DNA of 64,000 nt from Candidatus Woykebacteria bacterium. Lineage in GTDB: Bacteria; Patescibacteriota; Microgenomatia; Woykebacterales; RBG-16-39-9b. A program made the translations under genes and the position numbers. The stretch is taken from the NCBI GenBank assembly GCA_040876345.1, contig JBBDPM010000001.1, positions 192,314-256,313 on the forward strand, written 5' to 3'. Every line of letters begins with the position of its first letter. The stretch's first letter is position 1. Under the pieces are notes generated by a model that worked only from the letters and a program-made list of their open reading frames with translations, was not told where the DNA came from and did not search any database. Positions 10,114 through 49,337 of the stretch are shown here, one piece after another.

Positions 10114-10117
10114 ATAG

Positions 10118-12369: not shown

Positions 12370-12389
12370 ACGATCATTTTGGCCGAGTA

Positions 12390-12418
12390 ATTATATTAAA
12401 AAATGGTTTGGAATGCAA
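12390..12418 (-). promoter_or_regulatory. sigma70-type promoter for tRNA-Glu
   Basis: On minus strand TTGCAT-17 nt-TATAAT, about 20 nt upstream of the tRNA 5' end. Confidence 0.5.
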
Positions 12419-35942: not shown

Positions 35943-36047
35943 CCAATCTTTTCAGTAAGCATATAACCAATCGTCTGGTTGTCCGTTTACTTTTTTTACT
36001 GAACCGTCTAAATTTAAACAGCCTCCCTACACAAAAACTCACCTTCA

Positions 36048-36368: not shown

Positions 36369-36429
36369 CTGTGATCTTGAACTCCTTCGCCAATAGAGTT
36401 ATGATTCTTAAAAGGGAGGTGAAAACCTT

Positions 36430-36915
36430 ATGACTTATTCTGCCAAGGTTAGCCTTTTTCTGCTGAGGCTAGGAATTGGGTGGGTGTTTTTCTATGCTGG
36501 TTGGTCCAAAGTCATTACGTTCTTTACGGATACGAAAAACTGGACGGCCGCGGGATTTCTGATCGGTGGTGCAAAAGACCCAACGCATATTTTTGCTCCT
36601 CTTTTTGAATCACTGGCCGGTAACACCACTATCGATTATCTTAATGCTTACGGACTCTTATTTATCGGAATTGGTCTTTTATCGGGCGGTATGGTAAGGC
36701 TGGCGTCTTTATTTGGGATTATTCTAATGCTTCTCTATTACCTTCCCGGTTACCCACCAGAAAACGCCTTTATAATCGATGATCACATAATTTACTCTTT
36801 AGTCTTAATTTTTCTGGCAGCAGCTGGTGCTGGAAGAATGTGGGGATTGGATAAAAACATAGAAAAATGGCCGATGGTGAAGAAAAATCCCTGGCTAGTT
36901 AAAATCCTCGGATAG
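36430..36915 (+). CDS. DoxX family membrane protein
   Basis: LLRLGIGWVFFYAGWSKV DoxX N-terminal signature. 4 TM. Confidence 0.7.
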   Translation: MTYSAKVSLFLLRLGIGWVFFYAGWSKVITFFTDTKNWTAAGFLIGGAKDPTHIFAPLFESLAGNTTIDYLNAYGLLFIGIGLLSGGMVRLASLFGIILMLLYYLPGYPPENAFIIDDHIIYSLVLIFLAAAGAGRMWGLDKNIEKWPMVKKNPWLVKILG

Positions 36916-36929
36916 GCCCTTACCTTGAA

Positions 36930-38189
36930 ATGAAGAATACTGCCGTATCAAAGGTGGTGATTGTTGGTGCTGGTTTTGCCGGCGTCAGAGTTGCCCTAGA
37001 TCTTGCAAAATCTAAGTATCCTCAAGAAATAATTCTAGTTAACAAAAATTCTTACCACGAGTTTCACGCTGATCTTTATGAGATAGCCACCACCACACTT
37101 CCGGAGCCGCAAAGAAAACAAATATCTCGATTTACCTATGAAAACTTGAAAGGTTCGGTTGCCATACCCTTAGAGCAGATTTTTAAAGGTACAAACGTCA
37201 AAATTATCACCGATACAATAATCTCACTCGATCTAGAAAGTAAGAAGTTAGCGTTAGAATCTAGCAAGCCACTATTTTATGATGTCCTAGTTCTTGCTCT
37301 TGGAAGCGAGACAAACTACTTTGAAATTTCAAATTTGGAAAAATACTCTCTTCCCCTGAAGACAGTAGATGATGCTCTTAATATCAGGGACGAAATCGAC
37401 GAGATCTTCATGAGGAAGAAGAATGGCGATAAAATTTCGATCGTAGTTGGGGGTGGGGGTTTCACTGGGGTTGAGTTTGCCTCAGAATTAGTCGGATTTT
37501 TAAAAGATTTAAGTTTAATTCACGTGCATAAGGGACATGATGTTAAGCTGTCGGTAGTTGAAGCATGCCCAGCTTTGATAAATGGTGTCTCTCCTTCAAT
37601 TCAGGATGAAGCGAGGAAACGCCTTGAGCACTTAGGAATTCGACTGTACTTGGACAGCAAAATTACAAAAGTTACCAAAAAAATCGTTTATGCCGAACCA
37701 CACTTGGCTATCCCTTACGATTTGCTTGTCTGGACAGCCGGTATAAAGGCAAACAGTTTAGTCTCATCTCTAACTGGAGTTCATGTCGAAAAAACTTGTT
37801 TAGTGGTAGATAAGACCTTACGAGTTATACATTTTAGAAATGTTTTTGCGGTTGGTGATCTAGCCTACTGCTTTGATGAGGAGAAAAGCTGCCCAGTTCC
37901 CTCAACTGCCCAAACCGCAATTCACCAAGGCAAACATACGGCAATAAATATCGCTAGATTTCTAAAAAAGGAGGACCTCTTGCTTTATAAACCCAAAATG
38001 CCAAATTTTATTATTCCGCTTGGAGGCAAATATGCAGCCGCCCAAGTTGGCAACGTTATTATCAAAGGTACTCAAGCTTGGTGGTTAAAAAGAGCTGCTG
38101 CCCTTCGTTATTTTTCCTCTATCTTACCAGCTGCGGATGCCCTGAAAGTATGGGCTTCTGGTAACCGCTTCTTTGTAGCCAATGATTAA
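36930..38189 (+). CDS. ndh: type II NADH dehydrogenase / FAD-dependent pyridine nucleotide-disulfide oxidoreductase
   Basis: Two GxGxxG dinucleotide folds (VVIVGAGFAGV, VGGGGFTGVE). Confidence 0.75.
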   Translation: MKNTAVSKVVIVGAGFAGVRVALDLAKSKYPQEIILVNKNSYHEFHADLYEIATTTLPEPQRKQISRFTYENLKGSVAIPLEQIFKGTNVKIITDTIISLDLESKKLALESSKPLFYDVLVLALGSETNYFEISNLEKYSLPLKTVDDALNIRDEIDEIFMRKKNGDKISIVVGGGGFTGVEFASELVGFLKDLSLIHVHKGHDVKLSVVEACPALINGVSPSIQDEARKRLEHLGIRLYLDSKITKVTKKIVYAEPHLAIPYDLLVWTAGIKANSLVSSLTGVHVEKTCLVVDKTLRVIHFRNVFAVGDLAYCFDEEKSCPVPSTAQTAIHQGKHTAINIARFLKKEDLLLYKPKMPNFIIPLGGKYAAAQVGNVIIKGTQAWWLKRAAALRYFSSILPAADALKVWASGNRFFVAND

Positions 38190-38249
38190 ATTTTAGGTAT
38201 TGACATATGCAACTTAGTTGCATTAGTATACTTAGAATAGTAAAAAATT

Positions 38250-38663
38250 ATGCAGCTGACCGATTATCTTAGAAAAATAGGGGCTCGGGTAACCCCGGCC
38301 AGAAGATCTATCCTTGGGGCAATTGCTGAATCTAGTAAACCAATCTCCGCTGATGAAATTGGTGTTAAATTGATCAAAGATGGGTTTGAAGTAAATAAAA
38401 CCACTATTTACCGCGAGCTAGAGTTTCTAAAAACGGAAAATCTAATTCGCGAAATAGATTTTTTGGATGGTAGGAAAAGGTATGAGGCAACCTCCTATGG
38501 TCACCATCACCACGTAATCTGTAAAGCATGTGGTGGTGTCGAAGAGCTAGGATCCATCCCCGAATATTTCATAAACACTTTTTCCAGAAAGTCCCAGTTT
38601 TTAATACAAGATCATAATTTAGAATTTTTTGGTCTTTGTCAGAGTTGTCAAAAGGAGGTCTAA
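38250..38663 (+). CDS. Fur-family metalloregulator (probably Zur)
   Basis: TPARRSILGAI...HHHHVICKACG metal-site pattern. Directly precedes ZIP transporter. Confidence 0.75.
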   Translation: MQLTDYLRKIGARVTPARRSILGAIAESSKPISADEIGVKLIKDGFEVNKTTIYRELEFLKTENLIREIDFLDGRKRYEATSYGHHHHVICKACGGVEELGSIPEYFINTFSRKSQFLIQDHNLEFFGLCQSCQKEV

Positions 38664-39406
38664 TGACTTTAGCTTATATTTTAGTTTTTACGTTTATAGG
38701 TAGTATTTTTTCACTGATTGGAGGATTACTTCTACTACTTAAAAAGGGCTTTGCCGTAAAGATTTCGCACTACTTAGCTGCTTTTGCGGCTGGGGCTTTG
38801 CTTGGCACGGCTTTTTTTGATCTTTTGCCCGAGGCTATCGAAGAATCTGCAGATGGTAGTATTTTTGTCTGGACACTATTTGGAATTTTGCTCTTCTTCA
38901 TTCTTGAAAGGACTCTACATTGGTTTCACCATCATCATCGTGAGCACGGTGAAGAGCAGGAACCAACAGTGCTTTTGCTAAACTTTGGGGATGCTATTCA
39001 TAATTTCCTTGACGGTGTAGCCATAGCGGCTACCTTCTTAGTCGATATAAAACTTGGTATTATTACCTCCTTTGCCGTAGCTGCTCACGAAATACCGCAA
39101 GAAATAGGTGATTTTGGTATTATGCTTCACAAAGGTTTAAGCGGCCGAAAAGTCCTGCTCCTTAACGTTTTGGTTGCCCTGACAGCAATTGCCGGCGCTC
39201 TTATCACCTACTTTTTGGGCGACATGATAAAACCTCTTTTACCAGTTGCTTTATCTATCACGGCAGGATTTTTTATTTATATAGCTTCATCAGACTTGAT
39301 ACCAGAAATACATAATAAAAATGCTCAAAAGTTAGCCGCAATAGAAAGTGGCTTACTTATTCTCGGAGTGGTAGTGATTTACGTATTTGTAAAACTTTTT
39401 GAATAG
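38663..39406 (+). CDS. zupT: ZIP-family zinc transporter
   Basis: HWFHHHHREHGEE His-rich loop, HEIPQEIGDF motif. Start after AAAGGAGGT RBS with TAATG overlap of Fur stop. Confidence 0.75.
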   Translation: MTLAYILVFTFIGSIFSLIGGLLLLLKKGFAVKISHYLAAFAAGALLGTAFFDLLPEAIEESADGSIFVWTLFGILLFFILERTLHWFHHHHREHGEEQEPTVLLLNFGDAIHNFLDGVAIAATFLVDIKLGIITSFAVAAHEIPQEIGDFGIMLHKGLSGRKVLLLNVLVALTAIAGALITYFLGDMIKPLLPVALSITAGFFIYIASSDLIPEIHNKNAQKLAAIESGLLILGVVVIYVFVKLFE

Positions 39407-39455
39407 ACCCCACTATTCGTCTTGCCCAGTTTGTCTAGTCAGTAAATGTGAATGC

Positions 39456-39484
39456 TTGACAAGATATAGTTTAGTTACTATACT
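39456..39484 (+). promoter_or_regulatory. candidate promoter plus imperfect palindrome (AGTTACTA-N7-TAGTAGCT) upstream of MarR gene
   Basis: TTGACA-17-TATACT. Palindrome overlaps -10 and may act as autoregulatory operator. Confidence 0.35.
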
Positions 39485-39506
39485 ATTTAGTAGCTTAACT
39501 ACAATA

Positions 39507-39983
39507 ATGGATAAGAATCGAGAAGAACTACTGGAAAAACTTTTTAAAGAGATGATCTATACTTTCCGCTCTCTTAAGCCGGAAGGCCATAACTTTAGTG
39601 GTTACGATCATCACTGGAGCAAACGCAAATTTGGACGAGGGCACATGGATCTTTTTTTCCGGCTCATGAAAGAAAAGGAAGGGGTCTTTGCCAAAGATCT
39701 AGCCGATTCTTTGTGTGTAACCCCAGGAGCTATTACCCAAATCGTTGATGGAGCAGTCAAGGGTGGTATGGTCACTCGTATGGAGGATCCAGCTGATCGT
39801 CGCTTTCAAAAAATAAAACTTTCCGACAAAGCTAAAAGTAAAATAGAAGGGTTTAAGAAGAATTATTTTGAAAAACTCGAGCCCAGATTTTCCTCATTGA
39901 GTGATGGGGAAATCTCTCAATTATCTAATTTGCTTGCTAAAGTCAACTCTGTATCGGCCGAAAAGGAAGCTGTCCATGAATAA
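39507..39983 (+). CDS. MarR-family transcriptional regulator
   Basis: wHTH block LADSLCVTPGAITQIVDGAVKGGMVTRMEDPADRR. Start chosen at MDKNREEL. Confidence 0.6.
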   Translation: MDKNREELLEKLFKEMIYTFRSLKPEGHNFSGYDHHWSKRKFGRGHMDLFFRLMKEKEGVFAKDLADSLCVTPGAITQIVDGAVKGGMVTRMEDPADRRFQKIKLSDKAKSKIEGFKKNYFEKLEPRFSSLSDGEISQLSNLLAKVNSVSAEKEAVHE

Positions 39984-40932
39984 TTCGGAATCCATAATAT
40001 CTGTAAAGAATATTTATAAAAGCTTTGGGAAAACCAAGGCCCTTTCTGGTGTCAGTTTTGAGGCGGAAAAAGGCACAGTCTTGGGCCTTCTTGGTCCTAA
40101 TGGTGCTGGGAAGACGACTTTAATAAAAATATTAACCACCCTTCTTGTTCCAGATCAAGGAAGTGCAAGTGTAGCGGGCTTTGATGTAGCAAAAGATGCT
40201 AATAAACTGCGAAATGTCATTGGACTAGCCGGTCAATACGCTGCAGTTGATGAAAATCTTACCGGTCGAGAAAATTTAGAGATGGTCGCCCGGCTCTATC
40301 ACTTAGGAAGAAAAGAATCTAGGGCGCGAGCAAGTGCAGTGTTAAAGGAAATGACTCTTGAAGAAGCTGCCAATCGAACTGTAAAAACCTACTCTGGAGG
40401 AATGAGACGGCGTTTGGATGTTGGTGCCTCTCTTTTGTTTGAACCAAAAGTTCTTTTTCTTGATGAGCCAACTACTGGTCTAGACCCAAGGACTAGAAGC
40501 GATCTTTGGAAATTTGTTCGAAGTTTGGTAGAAAAAGGCACCTCGGTTGTTTTGACCACTCAGTATTTGGAAGAAGCAGATGCCTTGGCAGATACTATAG
40601 TGTTACTTGATAAAGGGAAAATAATTGCCGATGGAACTAGTCGTGAGTTGAAGCGCAAAATTGGCGGTAGCATGGTGGAAATTGAACCAAAAAATTGGGA
40701 ACAAGCGAGCCAAATCGAAGGTCTTTTAAAAAATAAATTTAAAGAAAGAATTCACGTGAAAGATAGTCATCAGCTAATCACTCTACCAGCGCCAAATGGC
40801 CCAGCCGATCTTCGGGATGCCCTAAATATTTTGGAAGAAGCAGATATCGAGCTGGTCCATATTAGTTTGGCCCAGCCGACTTTAGACGAAGTTTTTCTCA
40901 CTTACACCGGGAAGGAGGTTGTTAGTGAATAG
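39976..40932 (+). CDS. ABC transporter ATP-binding protein (DrrA-like exporter)
   Basis: Walker A GPNGAGKTT, signature YSGGMRRR, Walker B LFLDEPTTGLD. Confidence 0.85.
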   Translation: MNNSESIISVKNIYKSFGKTKALSGVSFEAEKGTVLGLLGPNGAGKTTLIKILTTLLVPDQGSASVAGFDVAKDANKLRNVIGLAGQYAAVDENLTGRENLEMVARLYHLGRKESRARASAVLKEMTLEEAANRTVKTYSGGMRRRLDVGASLLFEPKVLFLDEPTTGLDPRTRSDLWKFVRSLVEKGTSVVLTTQYLEEADALADTIVLLDKGKIIADGTSRELKRKIGGSMVEIEPKNWEQASQIEGLLKNKFKERIHVKDSHQLITLPAPNGPADLRDALNILEEADIELVHISLAQPTLDEVFLTYTGKEVVSE

Positions 40933-41695
40933 TATATCAAACGCTATAAGCGACGTACTGGTAATTACTGAGCGCAATTTAATTAGATACAGGCGTATTC
41001 CACAACTTTTGATATTTTCCACCATACAACCAGTAATGTTTTTGGTTCTTTTTAACTACGTGTTTGGAGGTGCTATTTCTCAAACGGGCCAAACCGGAAA
41101 TTATATTAATTTTCTTTTGCCGGGGATCATTGTTCAGACAGTACTTTTTGGGGCAAGCCAGGCAAGTGTGGGAATGTCAGCTGATATGGCTTCCGGAATT
41201 ATGGACAGGTTTCGCTCTCTACCGATAGCCCGTTTTTCAGTAATTGCTGGAAGAGTATTGGCAGACACGATAAGAAATATTTTTGTGGTATTGATAATGT
41301 TGGCAGTTGGTTTACTGCTTGGCTTTGAATTTCAAAATGGAATTGGAAACCTAATTATAGGAGTTCTTTTAGCAGTGCTTTTTGGATTTTCTTTCACCTG
41401 GATATCGATCGCAATTGGGCTGATGGTTAAGGATCCCGAGGCTGCCCTGCCAGCTGGTTTTTTGTGGATTTTTCCTTTGGTTTTCGCAAGCGGGATTTTT
41501 GTACCAGTGAAGACCATGCCTGAATGGCTTCAAGTTTTTGCAAGAAATCAGCCAGTTACAAGGGTTGCAGATGCGGTGCGCTCTTACATGATTGGTGGCT
41601 CACACGACAGCCTAGTCCCAGCTCTTTTATGGATGGGTGCCATAACAGCCGTTTTCATATTTTTAAGCATATGGTTTTACCGAAGAGCGAAATAA
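40919..41695 (+). CDS. ABC-2 type transporter permease
   Basis: 6 TM ABC-2 topology; overlaps ATPase gene. Confidence 0.7.
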   Translation: MLVNSISNAISDVLVITERNLIRYRRIPQLLIFSTIQPVMFLVLFNYVFGGAISQTGQTGNYINFLLPGIIVQTVLFGASQASVGMSADMASGIMDRFRSLPIARFSVIAGRVLADTIRNIFVVLIMLAVGLLLGFEFQNGIGNLIIGVLLAVLFGFSFTWISIAIGLMVKDPEAALPAGFLWIFPLVFASGIFVPVKTMPEWLQVFARNQPVTRVADAVRSYMIGGSHDSLVPALLWMGAITAVFIFLSIWFYRRAK

Positions 41696-41725
41696 CGAAA
41701 AAAAAATAAAAGAAAGGTTACTGAT

Positions 41726-42667
41726 GTGAAAGCAGCTCAGATTAATAAATATGGTGGTGTTGATGTTATTGAGATTAATGAAAACGCCCCAAAACCATCT
41801 GTATCAGAAGGCCAAATTCTAGTCGCGGTTCACGAAGCTAGTATTAATCCTATCGATTGGAAGATTAGAGCGGGTTACTTACAGGGTATGAATCTACCGT
41901 TCCCAATGACTTTAGGAGGAGATTTTTCTGGTGTAGTTATAGAAGTTGGTGGAAATGTAACCAATTTCAAAGTGGGAGACGCAGTTTATGGGCAAGGTGG
42001 CGTTTTAAATGAAGGATCCGGATCCTTTGCCGAGTTTGCAGCAGCGAGTGTCAACAAAGTAGCTGCCAAACCAAAAAATTTGGATTTTCGGCAGGCAAGC
42101 TCCCTCCCGCTCACTGGCGTAAGTGCTCTGCAAGCTTTAGAGGGTCACATTAACTTGAGTAAGGGCCAAAAAATTCTCATTCATGGTGGTGCTGGTGGTA
42201 TCGGTACTATTGCTATTCAAATAGCAAAAGCTTTAGGTGCTTATGCCGTGACTACAGTAAATGGTAAAGATATAGACTATGTTAAAAGTTTGGGGGCAGA
42301 CGAAACAATTGACTATAAAAATAATGATTTTGAAAGGAAATTAAAAGACTTTGATGCGGTTTTTGATACTGTTGGTGGTGATACCACAGATAAATCTTTC
42401 AAAGTGCTAAAAAAAGGTGGGACTCTTGTTTCGATGGTTAGGGAACCTAGCCCAGAACTAGCGGAAAAATATGGAATTACGGCCATTCGGCAAGGTACAG
42501 ATTCTAATCCAGAGCGTTTAAGCAGGCTTTCAGAATTAGTTGAGAGTGGAAAAATTAAAGCCCAAATAGATAAAGTATTTCCTTTAGAACAAGTGAGAGA
42601 AGCGTTTAAACACCTCGAAGAAGGCCACCCAAGAGGTAAAGTAGTTTTAGAGATTAAGAAAAACTAA
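41726..42667 (+). CDS. zinc-type alcohol dehydrogenase-like / NADPH:quinone oxidoreductase (MDR family)
   Basis: GTG start. GGAGGIGTIAIQIAK NAD(P)-binding motif. Confidence 0.75.
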   Translation: MKAAQINKYGGVDVIEINENAPKPSVSEGQILVAVHEASINPIDWKIRAGYLQGMNLPFPMTLGGDFSGVVIEVGGNVTNFKVGDAVYGQGGVLNEGSGSFAEFAAASVNKVAAKPKNLDFRQASSLPLTGVSALQALEGHINLSKGQKILIHGGAGGIGTIAIQIAKALGAYAVTTVNGKDIDYVKSLGADETIDYKNNDFERKLKDFDAVFDTVGGDTTDKSFKVLKKGGTLVSMVREPSPELAEKYGITAIRQGTDSNPERLSRLSELVESGKIKAQIDKVFPLEQVREAFKHLEEGHPRGKVVLEIKKN

Positions 42668-42675: not shown

Positions 42676-42745
42676 CTATGCTGGGGGGCATTTATCAAAC
42701 CGCATTTCTTGAAGTGCTATTTCAAGGGTACGACATTAGATTTGC
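42676..42745 (-). repeat. degenerate copy A of the secA 3' end (encodes ...PLK*HFKKCGLINAPQH...)
   Basis: About 75% nt identity to copy B and recognisable similarity to the real secA terminus (KKCGLVNSPTHQ). Out of any intact ORF. Confidence 0.55.
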
Positions 42746-42769
42746 TGCTATGTTTTTGAAAAAATAGCA

Positions 42770-42802
42770 TTGACAAATTGTACATAAAGTGGTACATATA
42801 AT
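42770..42802 (+). promoter_or_regulatory. promoter and GTACATA direct repeats (candidate Phd operator) upstream of phd
   Basis: TTGACA-17-TACATA (and TATAAT 4 nt further). GTACATA at 42780 and 42792. Confidence 0.4.
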
Positions 42803-42804
42803 AT

Positions 42805-43059
42805 ATGAGTGACTTAGTATCTATCTCTGATGCAAGAACAAACCTTCCCGACCTTGTTGCCAAGGTTAGTAATAGTATGGGTAGAGTAGTAATTACTGTC
42901 AACGGCAAGCCTCGGGCTACACTCGTAAGCGCAGAAGAGTTGGAGTCTCTCGAAGAAACAGCAGAAATCCTTTCTATTCCAGGGGCGAAGAAAAGTATTA
43001 TAGAAGGACTAAGACAAGCAAAAAAAGGACAAGGCATTTCTCTATCCCAATTAAAGTAA
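42805..43059 (+). CDS. type II antitoxin, Phd/YefM family
   Basis: 84 aa, MSDLVSISDARTNLPDLVAKV...VVITVNGKPRATLVSAEELESLEET. Confidence 0.8.
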   Translation: MSDLVSISDARTNLPDLVAKVSNSMGRVVITVNGKPRATLVSAEELESLEETAEILSIPGAKKSIIEGLRQAKKGQGISLSQLK

Positions 43060-43063
43060 GCTT

Positions 43064-43312
43064 ATGGAAGTAATTATTACTCCAAAGGCTAGTAAACAAT
43101 ACGACAAAATTCCCAATACTGAAAAGCTTAAAGTAGAAAAGAAACTTCTTGTACTTAGTCAAAACCCATATGATGGTAAGAAGCTTTCAGGTAATTTCTT
43201 AGGATTAAGATCCTTGAGAGCATGGCCATATAGAATAATTTATTACCTTGATGAGAAGTTACAGAAAGTATTTGTAGTTACTATTGCTCATAGGCAAGGT
43301 GTTTATGAATAA
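43064..43312 (+). CDS. relE: type II toxin, RelE/ParE family
   Basis: 82 aa. LSGNFLGLRSLRAWPYRIIYYLDEKLQKVFVVTIAHRQGVYE aligns with RelE C-terminus. Confidence 0.85.
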   Translation: MEVIITPKASKQYDKIPNTEKLKVEKKLLVLSQNPYDGKKLSGNFLGLRSLRAWPYRIIYYLDEKLQKVFVVTIAHRQGVYE

Positions 43313-43317
43313 ATTAT

Positions 43318-43415
43318 TAAGTTCTAGATTTAGCAATATTTTCTTGATGTGTCGGTATATTTACAAGACCACAACGCTTGAAGTGCTGTTTTAATGGGGC
43401 ACATATAGGTTTAAT
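43318..43415 (-). repeat. degenerate copy B of the secA 3' end (encodes ...ICAPLKQHFKRCGLVNIPTHQENIAKSRT*)
   Basis: 50/63 nt identical to the real secA terminus. Starts 6 nt after relE stop. Not part of an intact gene. Confidence 0.6.
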
Positions 43416-43417
43416 GA

Positions 43418-44386
43418 TTAAGAATCAGTTATTATTCTGATTTTTTCAAAATTCCTTCCTTCTAATCCTTCTATCGCTATTTTTTCTTTGGAAAATTTTG
43501 TTTTTTCTATTTGTTTTGGAGAAAGAATGTATTCGATAAAACTATCCCCCATTTTTTTCAAAGCACCAATTCCAACCCAGAATTTTGCGATAGAAGTTTT
43601 GGTTGTGCCAACGATGATAAATTTTCCAGAAGGAAGAGGCTGGCTAAAAACCGGTATTTTATCCTCTTTGTAGTAATAGCCAATGTCTCTTTTTAGTCCG
43701 ATATAAGCGTCGTGAATAGTGCGTATTTTCTCTCTCCATTTGGGGTCTTTTTTCTGCTCGGGGGTTGGATTTGCATTTAGCTCAACTGCCTGCAAATCTT
43801 CCTCAGAAAACGTGGGATTTGTTTTTGTCAGAGCGTTTGTCCTTTCATCTAATGATTCGTAGAAGTCTTCTACGGATGAAACCTGGTCTTCAAATTTAGT
43901 TATGGTCATTTTGAAGTTTTTTGGTTGGTAGCTTCTCAGGAAGTCTATTATCTTGGTGTATTCGGTGATATAAGATTCGACATCTGCAAGTGAGATATTA
44001 TCCATTTTGGGAAGAATGATATCATCCACAAAATAATCGAACCAAACCCCCGGTGTATAAATTTCACAAATTGGTTTTAGCCATTTTGTATAGTACATTG
44101 CAGCGAAGAGTTCGGCCCAATCCGGAAAGGGAGCTTCTTCTAGACTCCAGAGTTTATAGGCTCCATGAGGAAAAGTGAAGTTTATAGGAAGATTTTTTTC
44201 TACGTTTATTTTTATCGCCCCTCTTATTTGATCGGTGAGCTCTGGGCTCGCAGAATATTTTCTAAACTTTTTTGACATTACTATCCTGTAGATAGCCTCG
44301 ACCAATTCCTGATCGCTTGGTTTTGATATACCGGAGGGTTCCAGTAGGTTTTTTAAACTAGATTCTATGTATTCTTGGACCGTCAT
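43418..44386 (-). CDS. hypothetical protein (322 aa), cargo of secA-3' insertion cassette
   Basis: Soluble, no recognisable catalytic motif. Lies between copy B and the higBA pair. Confidence 0.5.
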   Translation of the reverse strand: MTVQEYIESSLKNLLEPSGISKPSDQELVEAIYRIVMSKKFRKYSASPELTDQIRGAIKINVEKNLPINFTFPHGAYKLWSLEEAPFPDWAELFAAMYYTKWLKPICEIYTPGVWFDYFVDDIILPKMDNISLADVESYITEYTKIIDFLRSYQPKNFKMTITKFEDQVSSVEDFYESLDERTNALTKTNPTFSEEDLQAVELNANPTPEQKKDPKWREKIRTIHDAYIGLKRDIGYYYKEDKIPVFSQPLPSGKFIIVGTTKTSIAKFWVGIGALKKMGDSFIEYILSPKQIEKTKFSKEKIAIEGLEGRNFEKIRIITDS

Positions 44387-44549
44387 ATTGGAGATGCGGA
44401 GTAGTCATTACTCTACTGTCGCAGCTTTGCAATCTGCTGCCTATTCTCGGCCACCGCACCACAGACATTATATCTTTATAGGAAGTGTAATTCTACAGCA
44501 AGGCAGATCATAATCTATGCTAGAATGGCAGCTATAAGGATGAGGGGAG

Positions 44550-44822
44550 TTATTTTATCTGAACTAAAAGTTCTGAATCTGTGGCTTTGGTGACTTTTTC
44601 GAGGAATTCGAGAGAAGGGTTTGAGTTACCAGACTCGAGGCGAGCAATGGCGGATTGTTTTGTCCCCACTTTTTTTGCCAGCTGTTCTTGAGTAAATCCC
44701 TTTTTGAGTCGTGCTTCGATAAGTTGAGACACCAGTTGGTAATGAGGCGTAAGTTTTTCGTATTCTTTAGAGATATTTTTATTTTTTAGTAGTTCTGCCT
44801 TGAGAGTTTTCCAATTTTTCAT
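44550..44822 (-). CDS. higA: HigA-like XRE-family HTH antitoxin
   Basis: 90 aa. FTQEQLAKKVGTKQSAIARLESG HTH. Follows toxin gene with 21-nt gap. Confidence 0.75.
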   Translation of the reverse strand: MKNWKTLKAELLKNKNISKEYEKLTPHYQLVSQLIEARLKKGFTQEQLAKKVGTKQSAIARLESGNSNPSLEFLEKVTKATDSELLVQIK

Positions 44823-44843
44823 AACGCTAATATAACATATACG

Positions 44844-45179
44844 TTATACTAGTGTCAACGTCCCCAATCGTTTCAAGGCTGTGTCTATTTCTTGGCGGGG
44901 AGTTTTCTGTTTCTTTTTTATAAAAGCGTGGAGTAAATAAATATCTTTCTTAGCATAGCCGTAGAGAATACGAATTTCTTGCCTGCCTCTGACTCGAAGT
45001 TCGTATAAGTCTGCTGTTAGCTTCTTAGTATGCGGCATCCCTAACCGAGAACCATAACTTTCCAACAGGTCAATCACGTGGATTACTTTAGCTACTGTTG
45101 GTTCATCTAGAGTTTTAATAAATTCTTCCACGAACTTTTCGCCACGTGATGATTCAAAAAGGACAACATTCCAGGGCAT
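44844..45179 (-). CDS. higB: HigB-like (Gp49/DUF1044) toxin
   Basis: 111 aa. ...LYELRVRGRQEIRILYGYAKKDIYLLHAFIKK pattern of phage Gp49-type HigB. Toxin-first order. Confidence 0.7.
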   Translation of the reverse strand: MPWNVVLFESSRGEKFVEEFIKTLDEPTVAKVIHVIDLLESYGSRLGMPHTKKLTADLYELRVRGRQEIRILYGYAKKDIYLLHAFIKKKQKTPRQEIDTALKRLGTLTLV

Positions 45180-45283
45180 TATGTATTCATAGTACCAAAT
45201 TAGGGGCGATTAGCAAAAAACTATAGTGGTAGTGGCTAAGATTAAAGTCTAAATCAGAGTAATTTCGACTAAACGAGTAAAAA

Positions 45284-45327
45284 TCTTGAGACTCCGCACG
45301 GAGGTCATAAGTACGGAAATCTCAAGA
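45284..45327. promoter_or_regulatory. inverted repeat TCTTGAGA-N28-TCTCAAGA with nested CTCCG-CA-CGGAG hairpin in higB upstream region
   Basis: Perfect 8-bp arms. Lies upstream of a minus-strand TTGCTA-16-TACTAT promoter-like sequence (about 45190-45225). Confidence 0.3.
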
Positions 45328-45362
45328 ATATTGACTTATAGTTTAAGAAAGTTTTGCTGCTT

Positions 45363-45460
45363 CTAGGCTTTAGACTTGGCCATATTTTCTTGGTGTGTCG
45401 GGCTATTTACAAGCCCACATTTTTTATACTTCAGACCTGAACCACACGGACACGGATCGT
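45363..45460 (-). repeat. copy C: functional 3' end of secA (…CPCGSGLKYKKCGLVNSPTHQENMAKSKA*) homologous to copies A and B
   Basis: See copies A/B. Confidence 0.6.
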
Positions 45461-48104
45461 TGCGGCCGATTTTGGTTTTGTGATCACCGGCAAGGCGTTC
45501 TTCTTTGGTGTTACTTTGGACAGGCTGTCCGCTAGTGGTTGATGATAAATGTTCATGACCTTCATGATCTAAAGCCTGCTGTCGAGACGCTGCTTCTTGT
45601 GGGGCCAACTGAATTTTGTAAATTCGGTGGACCACTTCATAGTCAATCGAGTCCATAAGCTGTTCAAAGAGTTTATAAGCCTCTGCTTTATACTCTACCA
45701 GGGGGTCGCGGCCAGCATAGCCCCGTAGCCCAATTCCTTCTCTCAGGTGATCGATATCTTCAAGATGATCTATCCAGAGAGTATCTATAACTGAGAGTAG
45801 AACTAGTTTTTCTACTTGTCTTGTTAGTTCTTTCCCAAATTGCTCTTCCCGCTTTTCGTACACTTCATGAGCGAGCTTTTTCAAAAGCTCTTCAATTTTA
45901 TCGCTCCCAGAAAGTTTATCAATTTGTTCTTTTATTTCCTTTTGGGAAGGTTCATCAAACGGTAGAATTGTGAAAAACTCTTTAGCTATTCTTTCTAGGT
46001 CAGGTTCTTTACTTTCAAGCTCGGATAAACCAACAATCGTCTCTATCTCAGAGTCAATTTTCTCCATCGTCATTTTCTTTAGCTCTTTTTCGGCATCTTC
46101 TTTATCTGGGTTTTCGGGGTTTCCTAGGGAGAGAATTTTCTTGCGCAAAGAGTAAATGATCTCCCTTTGCTTATTCATGACATCATCGTAATCAACTAAT
46201 CTTTTTCGGATATCAAAGTTATGACCTTCGACTCTGGTTTGAGCACTCTCAATCGCTTTGCTTACAATGTTGTTTTCAATTGGAACATCGTCTGGGATTT
46301 TTAGGGTAGTCATTAGGTTAGCAACAGCGTCTCCTCCAAAAAGGCGCATAATGTCATCTTGCAAACTTACGAAAAATTGAGTTGATCCTTGGTCTCCCTG
46401 ACGTCCAGACCGTCCCCGGAGCTGATCGTCAATTCTTCTTGCTTCATGACGCTCACTACCAATAATATGTAGACCTCCGAGCTTTGTGACGCCTTCTCCA
46501 AGCTTTATATCAACACCTCGACCAGCAATGTTAGTAGCAATTGTCACCTGACCTTTTTGGCCAGCCTCAGAAATAATCTGGGCTTCTTTCTCATGGTTTT
46601 TGGCGTTTAATACCTCATGGGGAACACCGCGCCTTTTTAGAAGAGTGGCCAGCAGTTCATTTTTCTCAATTGAGGTGGTACCGACAAGAATTGGTTGCCC
46701 CTTTTCGTGTCGCTCTTTTATATCATCTGTGACCGCTTCAAACTTGGCTGAAGCAGTTTTATATATTCGGTCGGGTAGATCATCCCTCACCATTGGTTTG
46801 TTGGTGGGGATTATTAGGGCGTCAAGTTTGTAGACTTTGTGAAATTCTTCAGCACTTGTGGATGCGGTTCCTGTCATTCCGGCCAGTTTGTTATACAGTC
46901 GAAAATAGTTCTGGAAGGTAACAGTAGCAAGAGTCAGAGATTCTCTTTGGATTTGGACACCTTCCTTAGCCTCAATCGCCTGATGCAAGCCTTCACTATA
47001 GCGCCGGCCAGGTAAAAGCCTACCTGTGAACTCATCGACAATTATTACCTCACCCTCTTTTACCACGTAATCACGATCCTTCTGGTATAAAGTTTTCGCT
47101 TTTAGAGCTTCTTCAATGTGGTGAAGAGTATCAAAATCTTTTTCGTATAGATTATCCACGCCAAGGGATCGCTCAATTTTCGATATTCCAATTTCGGTTA
47201 GATTTGCAGTTTTTAATTTCTCATCAACTTGGTAATCTGTTTTTTCGACTAATTTATCAACTAGCTTTGAGACCTCGTAATATTTTTCGGTTGATTCTTC
47301 GGCTGGAGCAGAAATAATCAATGGAGTACGAGCCTCATCAATTAAAATTGAGTCTACCTCATCTACGATTGCAAAGTGAAGATCACGCTGCGACATTCTT
47401 TTTAAATCGTTCACCATGTTATCGCGCAGATAGTCAAATCCATATTCGTTGTTTGTGCCGTAGGTAATATCAGCTCTATACGCTTCGGATCTGGTGACTT
47501 CTCGGAGATACTTACCAACACCAAGCCCCTCTTGCTCTGGAGAAAGGGAAAGCTCTGGATCCATTTTTATTTCTGCTTCTTCGGTTTTTGGAGTCTGCGG
47601 GTTGGGATCGAATACGTAAGACCTTTCGTGGTTTATAACTCCAACCGACAAACCAAGGGCGTGATAAATTGGGCCCATCCATTCAGCGTCTCTTTTCGCA
47701 AGATAATCATTAACAGTGACAAGATGGGCTCCCTTTCCTTCAAGAGCATTGAGATAAAGAGGGAGAGTAGCAACTAGTGTTTTCCCCTCACCAGTACGCA
47801 TCTCCGCAATTTTTCCCTGGTGAAGAACGGCGCCACCTAAGAGTTGGACGTCAAAATGCCTTTGTCCGATGGCGCGGCGAGAAGCCTCGCGAGTTACGGC
47901 AAAAGCTTCGGGAAGAATATCATCCAGGGTCTCGCCTTTTTCGAGCCTCTTTTTAAATTCTTCTGTTTTGGCGCGAAGTTTTGCGTCGGAGAGTTTTTTT
48001 ACATCAGCTTCAAGAAGATTGATAAGCTCGATGGTAGTGTCTAATTTTTTTAGCTCTCTTTCATTGGAGTCAAAAATTTTTCCAACAGCGTCAAATATCG
48101 ACAT
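45363..48104 (-). CDS. secA: preprotein translocase ATPase SecA
   Basis: 913 aa. DEAD-like motor motifs, C-terminal Zn-finger CPCGSG...C. Extended -10 (TGGTATACT) only 8 nt before ATG. Confidence 0.95.
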   Translation of the reverse strand: MSIFDAVGKIFDSNERELKKLDTTIELINLLEADVKKLSDAKLRAKTEEFKKRLEKGETLDDILPEAFAVTREASRRAIGQRHFDVQLLGGAVLHQGKIAEMRTGEGKTLVATLPLYLNALEGKGAHLVTVNDYLAKRDAEWMGPIYHALGLSVGVINHERSYVFDPNPQTPKTEEAEIKMDPELSLSPEQEGLGVGKYLREVTRSEAYRADITYGTNNEYGFDYLRDNMVNDLKRMSQRDLHFAIVDEVDSILIDEARTPLIISAPAEESTEKYYEVSKLVDKLVEKTDYQVDEKLKTANLTEIGISKIERSLGVDNLYEKDFDTLHHIEEALKAKTLYQKDRDYVVKEGEVIIVDEFTGRLLPGRRYSEGLHQAIEAKEGVQIQRESLTLATVTFQNYFRLYNKLAGMTGTASTSAEEFHKVYKLDALIIPTNKPMVRDDLPDRIYKTASAKFEAVTDDIKERHEKGQPILVGTTSIEKNELLATLLKRRGVPHEVLNAKNHEKEAQIISEAGQKGQVTIATNIAGRGVDIKLGEGVTKLGGLHIIGSERHEARRIDDQLRGRSGRQGDQGSTQFFVSLQDDIMRLFGGDAVANLMTTLKIPDDVPIENNIVSKAIESAQTRVEGHNFDIRKRLVDYDDVMNKQREIIYSLRKKILSLGNPENPDKEDAEKELKKMTMEKIDSEIETIVGLSELESKEPDLERIAKEFFTILPFDEPSQKEIKEQIDKLSGSDKIEELLKKLAHEVYEKREEQFGKELTRQVEKLVLLSVIDTLWIDHLEDIDHLREGIGLRGYAGRDPLVEYKAEAYKLFEQLMDSIDYEVVHRIYKIQLAPQEAASRQQALDHEGHEHLSSTTSGQPVQSNTKEERLAGDHKTKIGRNDPCPCGSGLKYKKCGLVNSPTHQENMAKSKA

Positions 48105-48253: not shown

Positions 48254-49337
48254 GTGTCTAGGACGCGATACATTCCGGGGTAATTAAAGGAAATTATGCC
48301 GGCTGATTGTCGTCGCGCTGTCTACACACTACCCAGGCTTTCAAAGAGAAACTATGATGTTCTCATGAAAACCATTCACACCTCTCTTACTTTTGATACC
48401 TCAGATATTGCTAAGTACCGTTTCCATGTTCTTACAATCTTCTACAAACACGGACTTAAGGCAGTCCAAGATGCCTTTGGAGTCAAGAAAAGTACTTTGT
48501 ATGATTGGCGGAAGACCTATGAGAGTTCTGGTAAAAAGCTCTCTTGTCTAGTTCCTAAAAGCCCAAACCTAAGAGAACCAGAGGGATGGCGATCGATTGG
48601 CGCCTTGAGGTGTTTATTAAGGCTCTCAGAGTTAAGTACGGCCGCCTCTCTAAGTACAAGATTAAAATCTTTCTTGATGAATACGCTAAAAGCCTAGGTA
48701 TTGCCAGTTACGGGGTAACTAAAATTAACAAGATCATTAAAAGAAGACACTATTACTTCTATGGTAAAACTAAGGTAAAAAGAAGGACAGGCGGCGCAAT
48801 TAAACGACTAAGACGAACCCCAAAAGAGACTGTACCCGGTTATCTACAAATGGACTCAATTACTGTCTACGTCACTAGCCAGAAGTATTATTTCGTGTCA
48901 GTGATTGACATTGTGACTAAGTTTGCTTGGTGCTCTTTAGTGGCGAGTTCAACTGCCAAGAACTCCACGGTTACCTTGGAAAAATTCCAAGCTAATTACC
49001 CTTATCCAGTTAGGGTCATCCAAACTGACAACGGTCATGAGTTCTTAGGTGACTTCCAAGCCTACTGTGAAGAGAGGTCGATACCGCCCGAGTTTATTTA
49101 TCCGCGCAGCCCGAAGATTAACGGGGTAGTAGGGAGGTTTAATCAGACTGTCCAGGAAGAATTTATTACCCGCGCCGACGAGCTCTATTACAACCGTTCT
49201 GGGTTTGAGGAGAAACTTACGAAATACTTAACTTGGTACAATAATTCTAGACCACACCATTCCCTGAACCTCCGCACCCCAGTGGCCTACTTAAAGGAGT
49301 TTTAACTAGAATTCCGAAATGTGTCCGTCCTATACAC
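48254..49337 (+). mobile_element. IS481-family insertion sequence (about 1.08 kb)
   Basis: Imperfect terminal inverted repeats GTGTCTAGGACGCGATACATTCCGG (48254-48278) and GTGTATAGGACGGACACATTTCGG (reverse complement of 49314-49337). Encodes HTH+rve transposase. Confidence 0.65.
48296..49305 (+). CDS. DDE transposase (HTH + rve integrase core), reading frame broken by a -1 shift near 48556-48562
   Basis: OrfB-part motifs IQTDNGHEF and YPRSPKINGVVGRFNQT (compare IS481 TRPYSPQTNGKVERFNRT). N-terminal 88 aa and C-terminal 249 aa in frames differing by -1. No canonical A-AAA-AAG slippery site. Confidence 0.6.

What the first reader, a model, noticed from the sequence alone, without database searches (positions are those of the whole stretch)
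42676..45460. Two toxin-antitoxin cassettes stacked at the 3' end of secA, each bounded by a copy of the secA terminus
The last about 60-100 nt of secA (45363-45460) recur twice more, in the same orientation and progressively more degenerate, at 43318-43415 and about 42676-42745. Their translations are HFKRCGLVNIPTHQENIAKSRT* and HFKKCGLINAPQH, versus the real KYKKCGLVNSPTHQENMAKSKA*. Between copies A and B sits only a promoter plus phd-relE (about 590 bp). Between copies B and C sit higB-higA plus a 322-aa unknown (about 1.97 kb). This is the footprint expected from serial site-specific integrations. Each incoming element carries its own version of the secA 3' end (crossover inside the C-terminal Zn-finger codons), restores an intact secA and displaces the previous 3' end downstream, as tRNA-targeting islands do. 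No integrase or excisionase lies within either cassette, so the cassettes are either mobilised in trans or are stripped-down remnants. A secA-3' attachment site populated by integrase-less TA mini-cassettes does not, as far as I know, correspond to a named element class.
Basis: seen in the sequence. Interest (0 to 1): 0.8.

Follow-up and report, generated by a model that had tools for sequence, protein, structure and literature searches.

The report
Mobile gene cassettes stacked behind secA
Two small cassettes without an integrase (one toxin-antitoxin pair alone, the other a pair plus an enzyme-like gene) have inserted one after the other into the last codons of the essential secA gene of a Candidatus Woykebacteria (CPR) genome, and the same repeat-bounded cassette arrays sit behind secA in every member of this group examined, like an integron built on a different kind of site.

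Summary
The end of secA (45363-45419, minus strand) recurs at 43317-43373 and 42676-42704, in the same orientation.

The three copies have a structure that fits serial integration:
- Copies 1 and 2 are alike only 3' of a TGYGG motif (the Cys-Gly codons).
- Copies 2 and 3 are alike only 5' of it, in a non-secA "P arm" of about 45 nt.
- The outermost copy carries the short tail (LINAPQH) found in the window's ten closest SecA relatives. The tail now fused to secA is of a different type.

The same architecture occurs behind secA in all 13 other Woykebacteria lineages examined, with up to six or more cassettes. It was not seen in 79 other secA loci.

Cassettes recur in different arrays and positions. 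Homology breaks at or next to TGYGG. The Phd/ParE cassette is far less diverged at synonymous sites than secA in the same genome pairs, which indicates horizontal transfer.

About 30 cassettes carry toxin-antitoxin pairs, NYN, an arsenic-type permease, regulators and unknowns. None carries a recombinase. The sites do not fold as hairpins, no intI is present and the locus is not at the replication terminus.

Best reading: cassettes integrate by site-specific recombination using a recombinase supplied in trans, which remains unidentified. This is a new variant of a known kind.

The parts
45363..48104 (-). secA (913 aa), the target gene. Its last 16 codons plus the stop (45363-45413) are supplied by cassette 2.
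   Evidence: ORF. 100% identical to an NCBI 'Candidatus Woykebacteria' SecA. The tail type does not match that of its closest relatives.
45415..45419 (-). Junction A: TGTGG (Cys-Gly codons of the SecA Zn finger), the inferred crossover point between secA and cassette 2 (attL-like).
   Evidence: Coordinates. Breakpoints of shared cassettes map to this motif.
45277..45414 (-). P' arm of cassette 2: the replacement secA tail (LVNSPTHQENMAKSKA), its stop codon, a conserved spacer and a terminator hairpin with a T-run (45277-45312).
   Evidence: secA homology to L087 runs on to window 45275, past the stop codon.
44844..45179 (-). HigB-like toxin (Gp49/DUF891 family, 111 aa), cargo of cassette 2.
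   Evidence: PF05973, E 4.5e-25.
44550..44822 (-). HigA-like HTH antitoxin (90 aa), cargo of cassette 2.
   Evidence: PF01381 HTH_3, E 5e-15. Weak NCBIfam antitoxin-type hits.
44390..44460 (-). tRNA-like cloverleaf leader directly upstream of the 322-aa ORF. It belongs to that gene unit.
   Evidence: Four-arm fold. A homologous leader precedes the homologous gene in L141. Not called by ARAGORN or Rfam.
43418..44386 (-). 322-aa protein with a PvcA/IsnA (isonitrile synthase)-like fold, from a conserved CPR family. Cargo of cassette 2.
   Evidence: No Pfam, NCBIfam or PADLOC hit. 626 homologs. AlphaFold2 pLDDT 92.8. Foldseek hits 9dhm/3e59, E 1e-9 to 1e-7.
43374..43412 (-). P arm of cassette 2, a conserved non-secA arm (...CCATTAAAACAGCACTTCAAGCGT).
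   Evidence: nhmmer site profile, E 1.3e-12. Pattern hit. Coordinates.
43317..43373 (-). Junction B: TGTGG (43369-43373) plus a displaced secA tail (LVNIPTHQENIAKSRT*). This tail is the P' arm brought in by cassette 1.
43064..43312 (+). ParE/RelE-family toxin (82 aa), cargo of cassette 1.
   Evidence: PF05016, E 5e-9. TIGR02385.
42805..43059 (+). Phd/YefM antitoxin (84 aa), cargo of cassette 1. A promoter/operator-like TTGACA...TGTACA...TATAAT lies at 42770-42802.
   Evidence: PF02604, E 1.3e-17. Promoter read from the sequence. The same cassette occurs in L087, L120, L133 and L140.
42705..42743 (-). P arm of cassette 1.
   Evidence: nhmmer E 1.4e-11. Coordinates.
42676..42704 (-). Junction C: TGCGG (42700-42704) plus the displaced ancestral short secA tail (LINAPQH...). 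It abuts the end of the adh gene (41726-42667, +), which is the chromosomal flank.
   Evidence: The tail type equals that of the closest SecA relatives.

Best explanation
The locus is a two-unit array of small cassettes that lack a recombinase. They entered one after the other by conservative site-specific recombination at the Cys-Gly codons (TGYGG) of the C-terminal zinc finger of secA.

Each mobile unit has three parts:
- a replacement secA tail with its stop codon and terminator (P' arm, about 60-140 nt);
- cargo;
- a conserved non-coding P arm of about 45 nt that ends in TGYGG.

In circular form, the P arm, TGYGG and the tail would make up the attachment site. Integration fuses the incoming tail to secA, which keeps the essential gene intact. 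It also pushes the previous tail, now preceded by the incomer's P arm, downstream.

In this window the Phd/ParE cassette (669 bp) came first and displaced the lineage's original short tail. The cassette carrying HigBA and the PvcA-like gene (2046 bp) came second.

The recombinase is not in the cassettes or in this 64-kb window, so it must act in trans. Its family is unknown. The dsDNA-type site without hairpins, and exchange within a few bases, fit a tyrosine or serine recombinase.

Shown: the anatomy, recurrence across the clade, modular reuse of cassettes, breakpoints at TGYGG, and horizontal transfer of a cassette.

Inferred: circular intermediates, the enzyme, and present-day activity.
For: Anatomy in the window:
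- The secA copy and the middle copy are similar only 3' of TGYGG.
- The middle and outer copies are similar only 5' of TGYGG.

Tail types:
- The outermost tail is the short type of the 10 closest SecA relatives. The fused tail is the long type.

Distribution:
- An nhmmer profile of the P arm finds one to six or more sites behind secA in the window and 13 other Woykebacteria lineages (L001, L083/084 with the site split by a 32-nt insert, L086, L087, L091/L136, L101, L109, L119, L120, L130, L131, L133, L140).
- It finds none in 79 other secA loci.
- CCATTA, CACTTCAA and TG.GG are invariant or nearly so across 23 distinct P arms, although the cargo is unrelated.

Modularity: the PIN140, Phd/ParE, NYN and VapBC cassettes recur in different arrays and positions.

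Breakpoints, using the PIN140 cassette:
- Its own P arm is 91-93% identical in three arrays, but the sequence right after TGYGG is only 33-38% identical in two of the three comparisons (63% in the third, where both downstream neighbours carry short-type tails).
- On the other side, its own tail is 82% identical while the neighbour's P arm is 60%.

Horizontal transfer: third-codon-position identity at conserved residues is 61-81% for phd/parE against 44-55% for secA in the same genome pairs.

Growth at the secA-proximal end: L087 and L140 (SecA 90% identical) share the distal Phd/ParE cassette but differ in the proximal cassettes.

No recombinase was found among about 30 cassettes or in the window.
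Against: - No candidate recombinase was identified anywhere.
- No circular or free attP form was found. There were 0 hits in IMG/VR with three site patterns and two cargo proteins. No small contig had a terminal overlap.
- No presence/absence polymorphism was seen among strain-level relatives (L136-139, SecA 97.6-99.6% identical) or among the contigs carrying the window's exact proteins.
- Several sites are decayed, being truncated or split by a 32-nt insert. The arrays may therefore be largely fossil.
- Shared cassettes still differ at 19-39% of synonymous third positions, so the transfers are not very recent.
- Some inter-site units hold two modules. Either sites get lost or units are not always single cassettes.
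Confidence: 0.7

Rival explanations
1. Decayed remnants (CIME-type). Each unit was once a full integrative element with its own integrase that integrated at secA. It then lost its recombination and transfer genes by deletion, and later elements accreted in tandem.
For: - This is the documented route to integrase-less, att-flanked elements and tandem arrays at gene 3' ends (PMC5704250). Tandem islands at ssrA in Dehalococcoides are similar (PMC3146451).
- A Replic_Relax (plasmid-type) gene or fragment sits in or next to arrays in L133 and L120.
- Several sites are visibly decaying.
Against: - None of about 30 cassettes in 14 lineages retains an integrase or a fragment detectable with XerD/Hin phmmer or Pfam.
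- The same compact 0.65-0.85-kb units (Phd/ParE, PIN140) occur in 3-5 genomes, each with a site at both ends in most of them. Independent deletions would not produce this.
- No integrase-bearing element with this site was found in the metagenome or viral scans.
Confidence: 0.12
2. Homology-driven exchange without a dedicated recombinase. The repeated tail and P-arm sequences act as portable homology, so that RecA inserts, deletes and swaps units by Campbell-type or double crossovers, for example after DNA uptake.
For: - No recombinase was found.
- Repeats of 60-150 nt flank every unit.
- Whole blocks including both flanking sites are homologous between genomes (window 43396-42657 against L087 13225-13949).
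Against: - Breakpoints coincide with TGYGG rather than spreading over the homologous stretch.
- The P arm has invariant blocks with no coding role across unrelated cargo and diverged genomes, which indicates a protein-binding function.
- Repeats are often only 60-80% identical over 45-60 nt, which established knowledge of RecA-mediated recombination says is a poor substrate.
Confidence: 0.12
3. Host Xer recombinase is exploited, as for IMEX elements or dif modules. The core mimics a dif-like site, so no element-encoded integrase is needed.
For: - The units lack an integrase, are often toxin-antitoxin modules and are stacked in arrays. Acinetobacter dif modules and IMEX arrays look like this (PMC6449649, PMC13141974).
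- By eye, ACTTCAAGAAA-TGTGG-TCTTGTAAATA loosely resembles Firmicutes-type dif. This is my own comparison from memory, a lead and not a test.
Against: - There is no GC-skew switch at the locus, so it is not the terminus or chromosomal dif.
- All sites are direct repeats, not alternating as in dif modules.
- Conservation extends about 45 nt on the P side, well beyond a 28-bp Xer site.
- No Xer gene or dif site of this lineage was available for comparison.
Confidence: 0.12
4. A classical integron or CALIN: the repeats are attC sites recombined by an IntI integrase.
For: - An array of small cassettes, many of them toxin-antitoxin pairs, is separated by similar repeats.
- The variable end lies next to a fixed platform.
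Against: - The sites have no conserved hairpin or palindrome. RNAalifold gives 0-3 pairs with no covariation, and a proposed stem does no better than shuffles.
- No intI-like tyrosine recombinase is present in the window or in about 140 loci.
- The crossover lies inside a coding sequence whose end each cassette replaces.
Confidence: 0.02
5. Mobilisation by a HUH Y1 transposase (IS200/IS605- or RAYT-type) acting on single-stranded ends.
For: - A Y1_Tnp gene (PF01797) sits divergently just upstream of secA in L087 and L136-139, and near the site in L117.
- A 32-nt REP-like insert occupies the same position in the core in three arrays.
Against: - No Y1_Tnp is present in the window or in most array-bearing loci.
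- The sites lack the subterminal hairpins these enzymes need.
- That mechanism does not explain duplicated 60-140-nt target-gene ends.
Confidence: 0.04

Closest known systems
Integron cassette arrays, including sedentary chromosomal integrons and CALINs
   Same: - Arrays of small, mostly single-function cassettes, many of them type II toxin-antitoxin pairs.
- Cassettes are separated by a family of similar repeats.
- The same cassettes occur in different orders in different genomes.
- The variable end lies next to a fixed platform, and the cassettes carry no recombinase.
   Different: - The sites show no conserved hairpin or palindrome of the attC kind.
- No intI is present.
- The insertion point is inside the coding sequence of an essential gene, and every cassette brings a replacement gene end and terminator.
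- The crossover lies in the middle of the roughly 100-190-bp site, not at one end.
- Cassettes point both ways and have their own promoters.
CIMEs and tandem site-specific accretion at gene 3' ends (ICESt1/ICESt3 at fda; IMEs at tRNA-Lys, rpsI and others; PMC5704250)
   Same: - Elements flanked by direct repeats that contain the 3' end of the target gene.
- They lack integrase and transfer genes.
- They stack in tandem, with the newest next to the target gene.
   Different: CIMEs are sporadic deletion products of ICEs or IMEs whose integrase-bearing relatives occupy the same site. Here every unit seen (about 30) lacks an integrase, is compact and recurs as the same unit across genomes. No parent element was found.
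Xer-dependent elements: IMEX arrays at dif and Acinetobacter dif modules (PMC6449649, PMC13141974)
   Same: Small modules without an integrase, often toxin-antitoxin pairs, bounded by short recombination sites and moved by a recombinase encoded elsewhere in the cell. Serial integration regenerates a usable site.
   Different: - The locus is not at the terminus.
- Sites are direct repeats and much longer than 28 bp.
- Sites are embedded in and rebuild a protein-coding gene.
- Xer involvement was not tested.
Genomic islands at tRNA/tmRNA genes, such as the tandem ssrA islands of Dehalococcoides (PMC3146451)
   Same: The incoming element carries a copy of the target gene's 3' end, restores the gene and leaves displaced partial copies as direct repeats. 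Tandem arrays form.
   Different: Those islands encode their own site-specific recombinase next to the att site and are many kilobases long. Here the target is a protein-coding essential gene, and the units are 0.65-4.5 kb with no recombinase.

Membership tests
Integron | An intI tyrosine-recombinase gene adjacent to the array | tested here: not met
   No tyrosine recombinase in the 64-kb window (Pfam on all ORFs of 132 aa or more; gene tables) or in about 140 related loci (phmmer with XerD). Only an rve-type IS lies next to secA.
Integron | attC sites: imperfect palindromes that fold into a hairpin with conserved R/L boxes | tested here: not met
   RNAalifold on 8 full sites gives 3 pairs with no covariation. 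On 23 P arms it gives 0 pairs. An explicit 5-bp stem is paired in 51% of cells, no better than shuffles.
Integron | Cassettes accumulate at one primary site next to a fixed platform and are reshuffled between arrays | tested here: met
   Shared distal and differing proximal cassettes in L087 against L140. Cassette families occur in different positions.
Integron | Mostly promoterless cassettes in one orientation, expressed from Pc | tested here: not met
   Cassettes lie in both orientations. Phd/ParE has its own promoter-like TTGACA...TATAAT, read from the sequence. The arm next to secA ends in a terminator.
CIME / tandem accretion | Flanked by attL/attR direct repeats that include the 3' end of the target gene, and lacking integrase and transfer genes | tested here: met
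CIME / tandem accretion | Derived by deletion from an ICE or IME, with an integrase-bearing relative using the same att site | tested here: inconclusive
   No integrase-bearing element was found at secA in 14 lineages or among 15 true metagenome hits. None was found in IMG/VR. The sampling is not exhaustive.
IMEX / Xer-dependent dif modules | A 28-bp dif-like site with XerC and XerD arms that matches the host dif | not testable with these tools
Only a by-eye resemblance of the core to Firmicutes dif exists, recalled from memory.
IMEX / Xer-dependent dif modules | Located at the replication terminus (IMEX), or sites in alternating orientation (dif modules) | tested here: not met
   GC skew is positive on both sides of the locus. 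All sites are direct repeats.
IS200/IS605-type or RAYT-mobilised elements | Subterminal hairpins at the element ends and a Y1 HUH transposase | tested here: not met
   No conserved hairpins. Y1_Tnp is absent from the window and present upstream of secA only in L087 and L136-139, and elsewhere in L117.
Integrative island targeting a gene 3' end (tRNA-island type) | Duplication of the target's 3' end as direct repeats, with the gene restored by the element | tested here: met
Integrative island targeting a gene 3' end (tRNA-island type) | An element-encoded integrase next to one att site | tested here: not met
Type II toxin-antitoxin modules (cargo) | Adjacent small antitoxin and toxin genes from known families | tested here: met
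   Phd PF02604 with ParE PF05016, and Gp49/HigB-like PF05973 with HTH_3 PF01381. All score above the Pfam cut-offs.

The most novel reading that the evidence does not exclude
Candidatus Woykebacteria carry a previously undescribed gene-capture platform that is analogous to an integron but mechanistically distinct. A dedicated, still unidentified recombinase encoded elsewhere in the genome inserts circular mini-cassettes into the invariant Cys-Gly codons of the secA zinc finger. It uses a double-stranded site of about 100-190 bp (P arm, TGYGG, replacement tail and terminator). The 3' end of an essential gene thereby serves as a permanent attI-like docking site for a shared pool of toxin-antitoxin, defence and resistance cassettes in a CPR lineage.
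Probability: 0.4. Interest if true: 0.85.

Novelty: new variant of a known kind. Interest (0 to 1): 0.68.

Why it matters
CPR/Patescibacteria have tiny genomes and little is known about how they exchange genes. This finding shows a clade-wide hotspot at a fixed address where small cassettes are stacked and shared between lineages. Most carry toxin-antitoxin pairs. Others carry NYN, PIN, arsenic-type permease, regulator and enzyme genes.

The arrays behave like integron arrays but use a different kind of site and no nearby integrase. The design is unusual because the target is the coding end of an essential gene that every cassette must rebuild.

If the recombinase can be found, the system offers:
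- a defined attB/attP pair for a group with no genetic tools;
- a simple sequence signature (P arm plus secA tail) for mining accessory genes of uncultured CPR bacteria;
- a natural record of the order of insertions.

If the arrays are only fossil CIME-like remnants, the result is still a clear example of tandem accretion in a new phylum and at a new target gene.

Tried and rejected
- attC-like or IS200/605-like hairpin sites: rejected. RNAalifold on 8 full sites and on 23 P arms found no structure, and an explicit stem did no better than shuffles.
- Terminus/dif location: rejected. There is no GC-skew switch.
Pfam on essentially all window ORFs found only an rve IS next to secA and a Replic_Relax protein at 10.1-11.0 kb.
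- Free or phage-borne forms: three site patterns and two cargo proteins gave 0 hits in IMG/VR. Small metagenome contigs with sites have no terminal overlaps and are collinear with known arrays.
- Strain-level polymorphism: four SecA variants 97.6-99.6% identical. The three fetched loci with sequence beyond secA (L136, L137, L139) have the same sites, and the shorter L138 agrees as far as it reaches. The contigs carrying the window's exact proteins were shown as one arrangement.
- Further decayed sites between site C and the conserved GT-prfB flank (window 33-43 kb): none found, even with nhmmer --max at E up to 50.
- A degenerate P arm between HigA and the 322-aa gene: rejected. That stretch is the promoter and tRNA-like leader, homologous to L141.
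- Dyad symmetry or covariation around TGYGG: checked by eye only, inconsistent between cassettes and not used.
- A tRNA-Glu island with Replic_Relax at 8-12.4 kb: no tRNA-end repeat was found.
- Literature: no report was found of secA-targeted cassettes or of integron-like arrays in CPR.

Full report
**1. What is in the window**

secA (913 aa) runs on the minus strand from 48104 to 45363. Its product is 100% identical to a SecA that NCBI assigns to a Candidatus Woykebacteria MAG (Microgenomates, CPR).

Downstream, between secA and a convergent zinc-type alcohol dehydrogenase gene (41726-42667), the genes are as follows:
- a Gp49/HigB-like toxin (44844-45179);
- an HTH_3 antitoxin (44550-44822);
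- a 322-aa ORF (43418-44386);
- on the other strand, Phd (42805-43059) and ParE/RelE (43064-43312).

The end of secA recurs twice in the secA orientation. The segment 45364-45419 matches 43318-43373 at 82% over 56 nt. The segment 43359-43397 matches 42690-42728 at 74% over 39 nt.

A pattern written for the shared arm hits the 64-kb window only at these two places, against 0.00 expected from shuffles. The contigs from separate assemblies that carry these exact proteins were all collapsed by the tool onto one gene arrangement.

**2. The internal logic of the three copies**

The two repeat families overlap by only 15 nt (TGTGGTCTTGTAAAT in the middle copy).
- The secA copy and the middle copy are alike 3' of the motif TGYGG. 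The shared part is the tail codons and the stop. Comparison with relatives adds a conserved spacer and a terminator hairpin at 45277-45312.
- The middle and outer copies are alike 5' of TGYGG. This stretch of about 45 nt is not secA sequence. It reads ...PLKxHFK[KR]CG instead of ...SGLKYKKCG.

This is the pattern expected if two related elements integrated one after the other at TGYGG. Each would carry a left arm (P) and a right arm (P', a replacement secA end).

The outermost tail, LINAPQH, differs from the other two. It matches the short tail (KCGLINAPQHKG* or similar) of the ten closest SecA relatives (75-85% identity). The tail now fused to secA (LVNSPTHQENMAKSKA*) is the long type, which appears only among SecAs at 75% identity or less (29 long and 29 short among ranks 12-75). 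The present end of secA is therefore foreign to its body, and the outermost copy is the displaced original.

**3. The same thing elsewhere**

Among 80 secA loci from GTDB species representatives, seven other CPR genomes have a KCGL[LIV]N...H tail, and the peptide scan found no extra tail copy downstream of any. The P-arm profile later found one displaced site in L001, the only Woykebacteria locus among the 80.

Loci fetched through closer SecA relatives and a metagenome scan with the P-arm pattern changed the picture. The scan gave 40 hits, of which 15 loci are true sites followed in frame by a secA tail. A profile of the P arm (nhmmer) finds sites behind secA in the window and 13 other Woykebacteria lineages:

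| Lineage (locus) | Sites found |
|---|---|
| L001 | 1 |
| L083/084 | 1, interrupted by an insert |
| L086 | 1 |
| L087-089 | 3 |
| L091/L136-139 | 2-3, decayed |
| L101 | 1 |
| L109 | 3 |
| L119 | 1 |
| L120 | at least 2 |
| L130 | 1 |
| L131 | 2 |
| L133/134 | at least 6, over 7.6 kb |
| L140 | 2, decayed |

None of the 79 non-Woykebacteria loci has a site. No Woykebacteria locus with an empty site was seen.

Across 23 distinct P arms, the blocks CCATTA, CACTTCAA and TG.GG are invariant or nearly so, although the adjoining cargo is unrelated.

Cargo of about 30 units:
- toxin-antitoxin pairs: Phd/ParE, VapBC/PIN, HicAB, BrnTA, Phd/YafQ and HigBA;
- NYN-domain proteins;
- an ArsR, thioredoxin-like protein and ArsP permease set;
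- PadR and MarR regulators;
- a methyltransferase and a redox gene set;
- unknowns.

**4. The units are mobile and are cut at TGYGG**

Cassette families recur in different arrays and at different positions (L125/L140):

| Cassette family | Where it occurs |
|---|---|
| PIN140 | L109 unit 2, L133 unit 2, L120 unit 1 (about 95% in tblastx) |
| Phd/ParE | window unit 2, L087 unit 3, L120, L133 unit 5, L140 |
| NYN | L087 unit 1, L109 unit 3 |
| VapBC | L087 unit 2 and L133 unit 3; also L125 and L140 |

Breakpoints are clearest for PIN140.
- The P arm downstream of the cargo is 91-93% identical in three arrays. The 60 nt after TGYGG are only 33-38% identical when the neighbours differ (63% in the one pair whose neighbours both carry short-type tails).
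- On the upstream side, the tail after TGYGG is 82% identical while the neighbour's P arm is 60%.
- The travelling unit is therefore [tail ... cargo ... P arm], and exchange happens within or right next to TGYGG.

The Phd/ParE cassette is younger than the genomes that carry it.
- Between the window and L087, L133 or L140, third-codon-position identity at conserved residues is 63-78% for phd/parE. For secA it is 44-49%.
- L087 against L133 gives 89% nucleotide identity for the cassette and 67% for secA.

L087 and L140 (SecA 90% identical) share the distal Phd/ParE unit but differ in the units next to secA. This fits insertion at the secA junction.

**5. What it is not**

- The sites do not fold. 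RNAalifold finds no conserved helix in full sites or P arms, and an explicit stem does no better than shuffles. This excludes attC-type sites and IS200/IS605-type ends.
- There is no GC-skew switch at the locus, so it is not the terminus or dif.
- No tyrosine or serine recombinase is encoded in either cassette, anywhere in the 64-kb window, or in about 140 related loci (and the gene tables). The only transposase nearby is an rve-type IS between secA and the upstream glycosyltransferase gene, and relatives lack it.
- No free or viral copy of the site or cargo was found.
- No presence/absence polymorphism was seen among strain-level relatives.

**6. Mechanism**

The best-supported model is conservative site-specific recombination between the Cys-Gly codons of the SecA zinc finger (attB) and a P arm-TGYGG-tail site on a circular cassette (attP). 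An enzyme encoded elsewhere would catalyse it.

Because the incoming P' arm supplies the last 12-19 codons, the stop codon and a terminator, secA stays intact and insulated from the cargo. TGYGG encodes an invariant part of an essential protein, which makes it a stable target.

Shown: the anatomy, clade-wide recurrence, modular reuse, breakpoints and horizontal transfer. Inferred: the circular form, the class of enzyme and present activity.

Rivals:
- CIME-like decay of integrase-bearing elements. Against it, no parent element or integrase remnant exists, and identical compact units recur.
- RecA-driven exchange through the repeats. Against it, the breakpoints coincide and the conserved P-arm blocks have no coding role.
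- Use of host Xer. It could not be tested, and the locus is not at the terminus.
- A classical integron or a HUH transposase. The structure tests reject both.

**7. Comparison with what is known**

- The principle is classical for tRNA/tmRNA islands and ICE/IME accretion: an element carries the 3' end of its target gene and leaves displaced copies, with tandem stacking (PMC5704250; PMC3146451).
- Integrase-less att-flanked units have a name, CIME.
- Arrays of integrase-less toxin-antitoxin modules are known from integrons and from Xer-dependent dif modules (PMC6449649, PMC13141974).

What appears new is the combination: a clade-wide array platform of compact cassettes that all lack a recombinase, with a hairpin-free site conserved in sequence, docked inside the coding end of secA, in a CPR lineage. 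Full-text searches found no description of secA-targeted cassettes or integron-like arrays in CPR. I class it as a new variant of a known kind.

**8. The 322-aa cargo gene**

It has no family hit but belongs to a well-conserved CPR family. A confident model (pLDDT 92.8) resembles the isonitrile synthases PIsnA and PvcA, and more distantly TyrRS and cyclodipeptide synthases.

A cloverleaf tRNA-like leader precedes it (44390-44460). The homolog in another CPR lineage (L141) has the same kind of leader. There it sits natively right after a secA with a different tail and no tail duplicates.

In the window the gene lies inside the unit bounded by junctions A and B, together with HigBA. That unit is probably a fusion of two modules, as seen for NYN, which is alone in L109 and joined to a 235-aa gene in L087.

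Noticed in passing
window 44390-44460 (-) and 43418-44386 (-); L141 about 5926-5998 and 6001-6960: A roughly 71-nt element folds as a four-arm tRNA-like cloverleaf directly upstream of the 322-aa gene. That gene's AlphaFold2 model resembles the isonitrile synthases PvcA/PIsnA, which have a class-I aaRS/CDPS-like fold. The homolog in another CPR lineage has the same kind of leader, with a GGTTCAATTCC T-arm. ARAGORN and Rfam call nothing. It could be a tRNA-mimic regulator or a substrate.
   Followed up: partly
L141-L144 (secA 3083-5860 and the 319-aa gene 6001-6960 in L141): In a different CPR lineage (SecA tail KKCHYPD*), the PvcA-like gene is the native neighbour directly downstream of secA, with no tail duplicates. 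The window's cassette may therefore have picked this gene up from a secA-adjacent position in some donor.
   Followed up: partly
L084 about 12003-12034, L100 about 376-407, L115, L125 about 1079-1110; related motif at L087 10739 and 12426 and L086 6121: A 32-nt REP-like insert (TAGTCCGAAGGACGCAGAGCGCGAAGCGATCT, with two GAA-loop mini-hairpins) splits the core at exactly the same place, between the Leu and Ile codons after TGYGG, in three independent arrays. Related copies lie just after the secA stop codon and elsewhere.
   Followed up: partly
L087 7115-7687 (-), L136 8195-8782 (-), also L137-139; L117 7172-7684: An IS200-like Y1 transposase/RAYT gene (PF01797) sits divergently just upstream of secA in two lineages and near the site in a third. 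This recalls the position of intI relative to attI. It is absent from the window and from most arrays.
   Followed up: partly
window 48296-49305 (+): An IS with two overlapping ORFs (HTH_23 and rve integrase-core) is inserted between secA and the conserved upstream glycosyltransferase gene. The relatives examined lack it at this position.
   Followed up: partly
window 34683-42667: Relatives (L001, L119, L130, L117) have the conserved GT(GtrA)-small protein-prfB block directly after the last site. The window instead has 8 kb of extra genes there: an unknown 419-aa ORF, DoxX, Pyr_redox_2, FUR, ZIP, MarR, a two-gene ABC exporter and ADH. In L100 a site directly abuts the Pyr_redox_2 homolog. No decayed sites were found in this stretch.
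   Followed up: partly
window 8000-12400: A Replic_Relax (PF13814) protein lies at 10118-10957, with repeat-rich and unknown ORFs around it and tRNA-Glu(CTC) at 12293-12369. It may be another integrated element, but no repeat of the tRNA end was found. Replic_Relax genes or fragments also occur in or beside secA arrays in L133 and L120.
   Followed up: partly
L136 11765-11810 (same in L091, L137-139): A second secA tail copy (KKCGLINSPQHKA*) lies about 30 nt after the real stop codon with no recognisable P arm. A P arm without a core or tail lies 700 nt further on. These are examples of site decay by deletion.
   Followed up: no
SecA C-termini, proteins P0001-P0120: SecA of Woykebacteria and some other CPR replaces the usual ...KKC[HC]G zinc-finger end with ...KKCGL[IV]N.P.H. 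The likely fourth ligand moves 8 residues downstream, and the tails are dimorphic, short or long (THQENMAKAKA).
   Followed up: no
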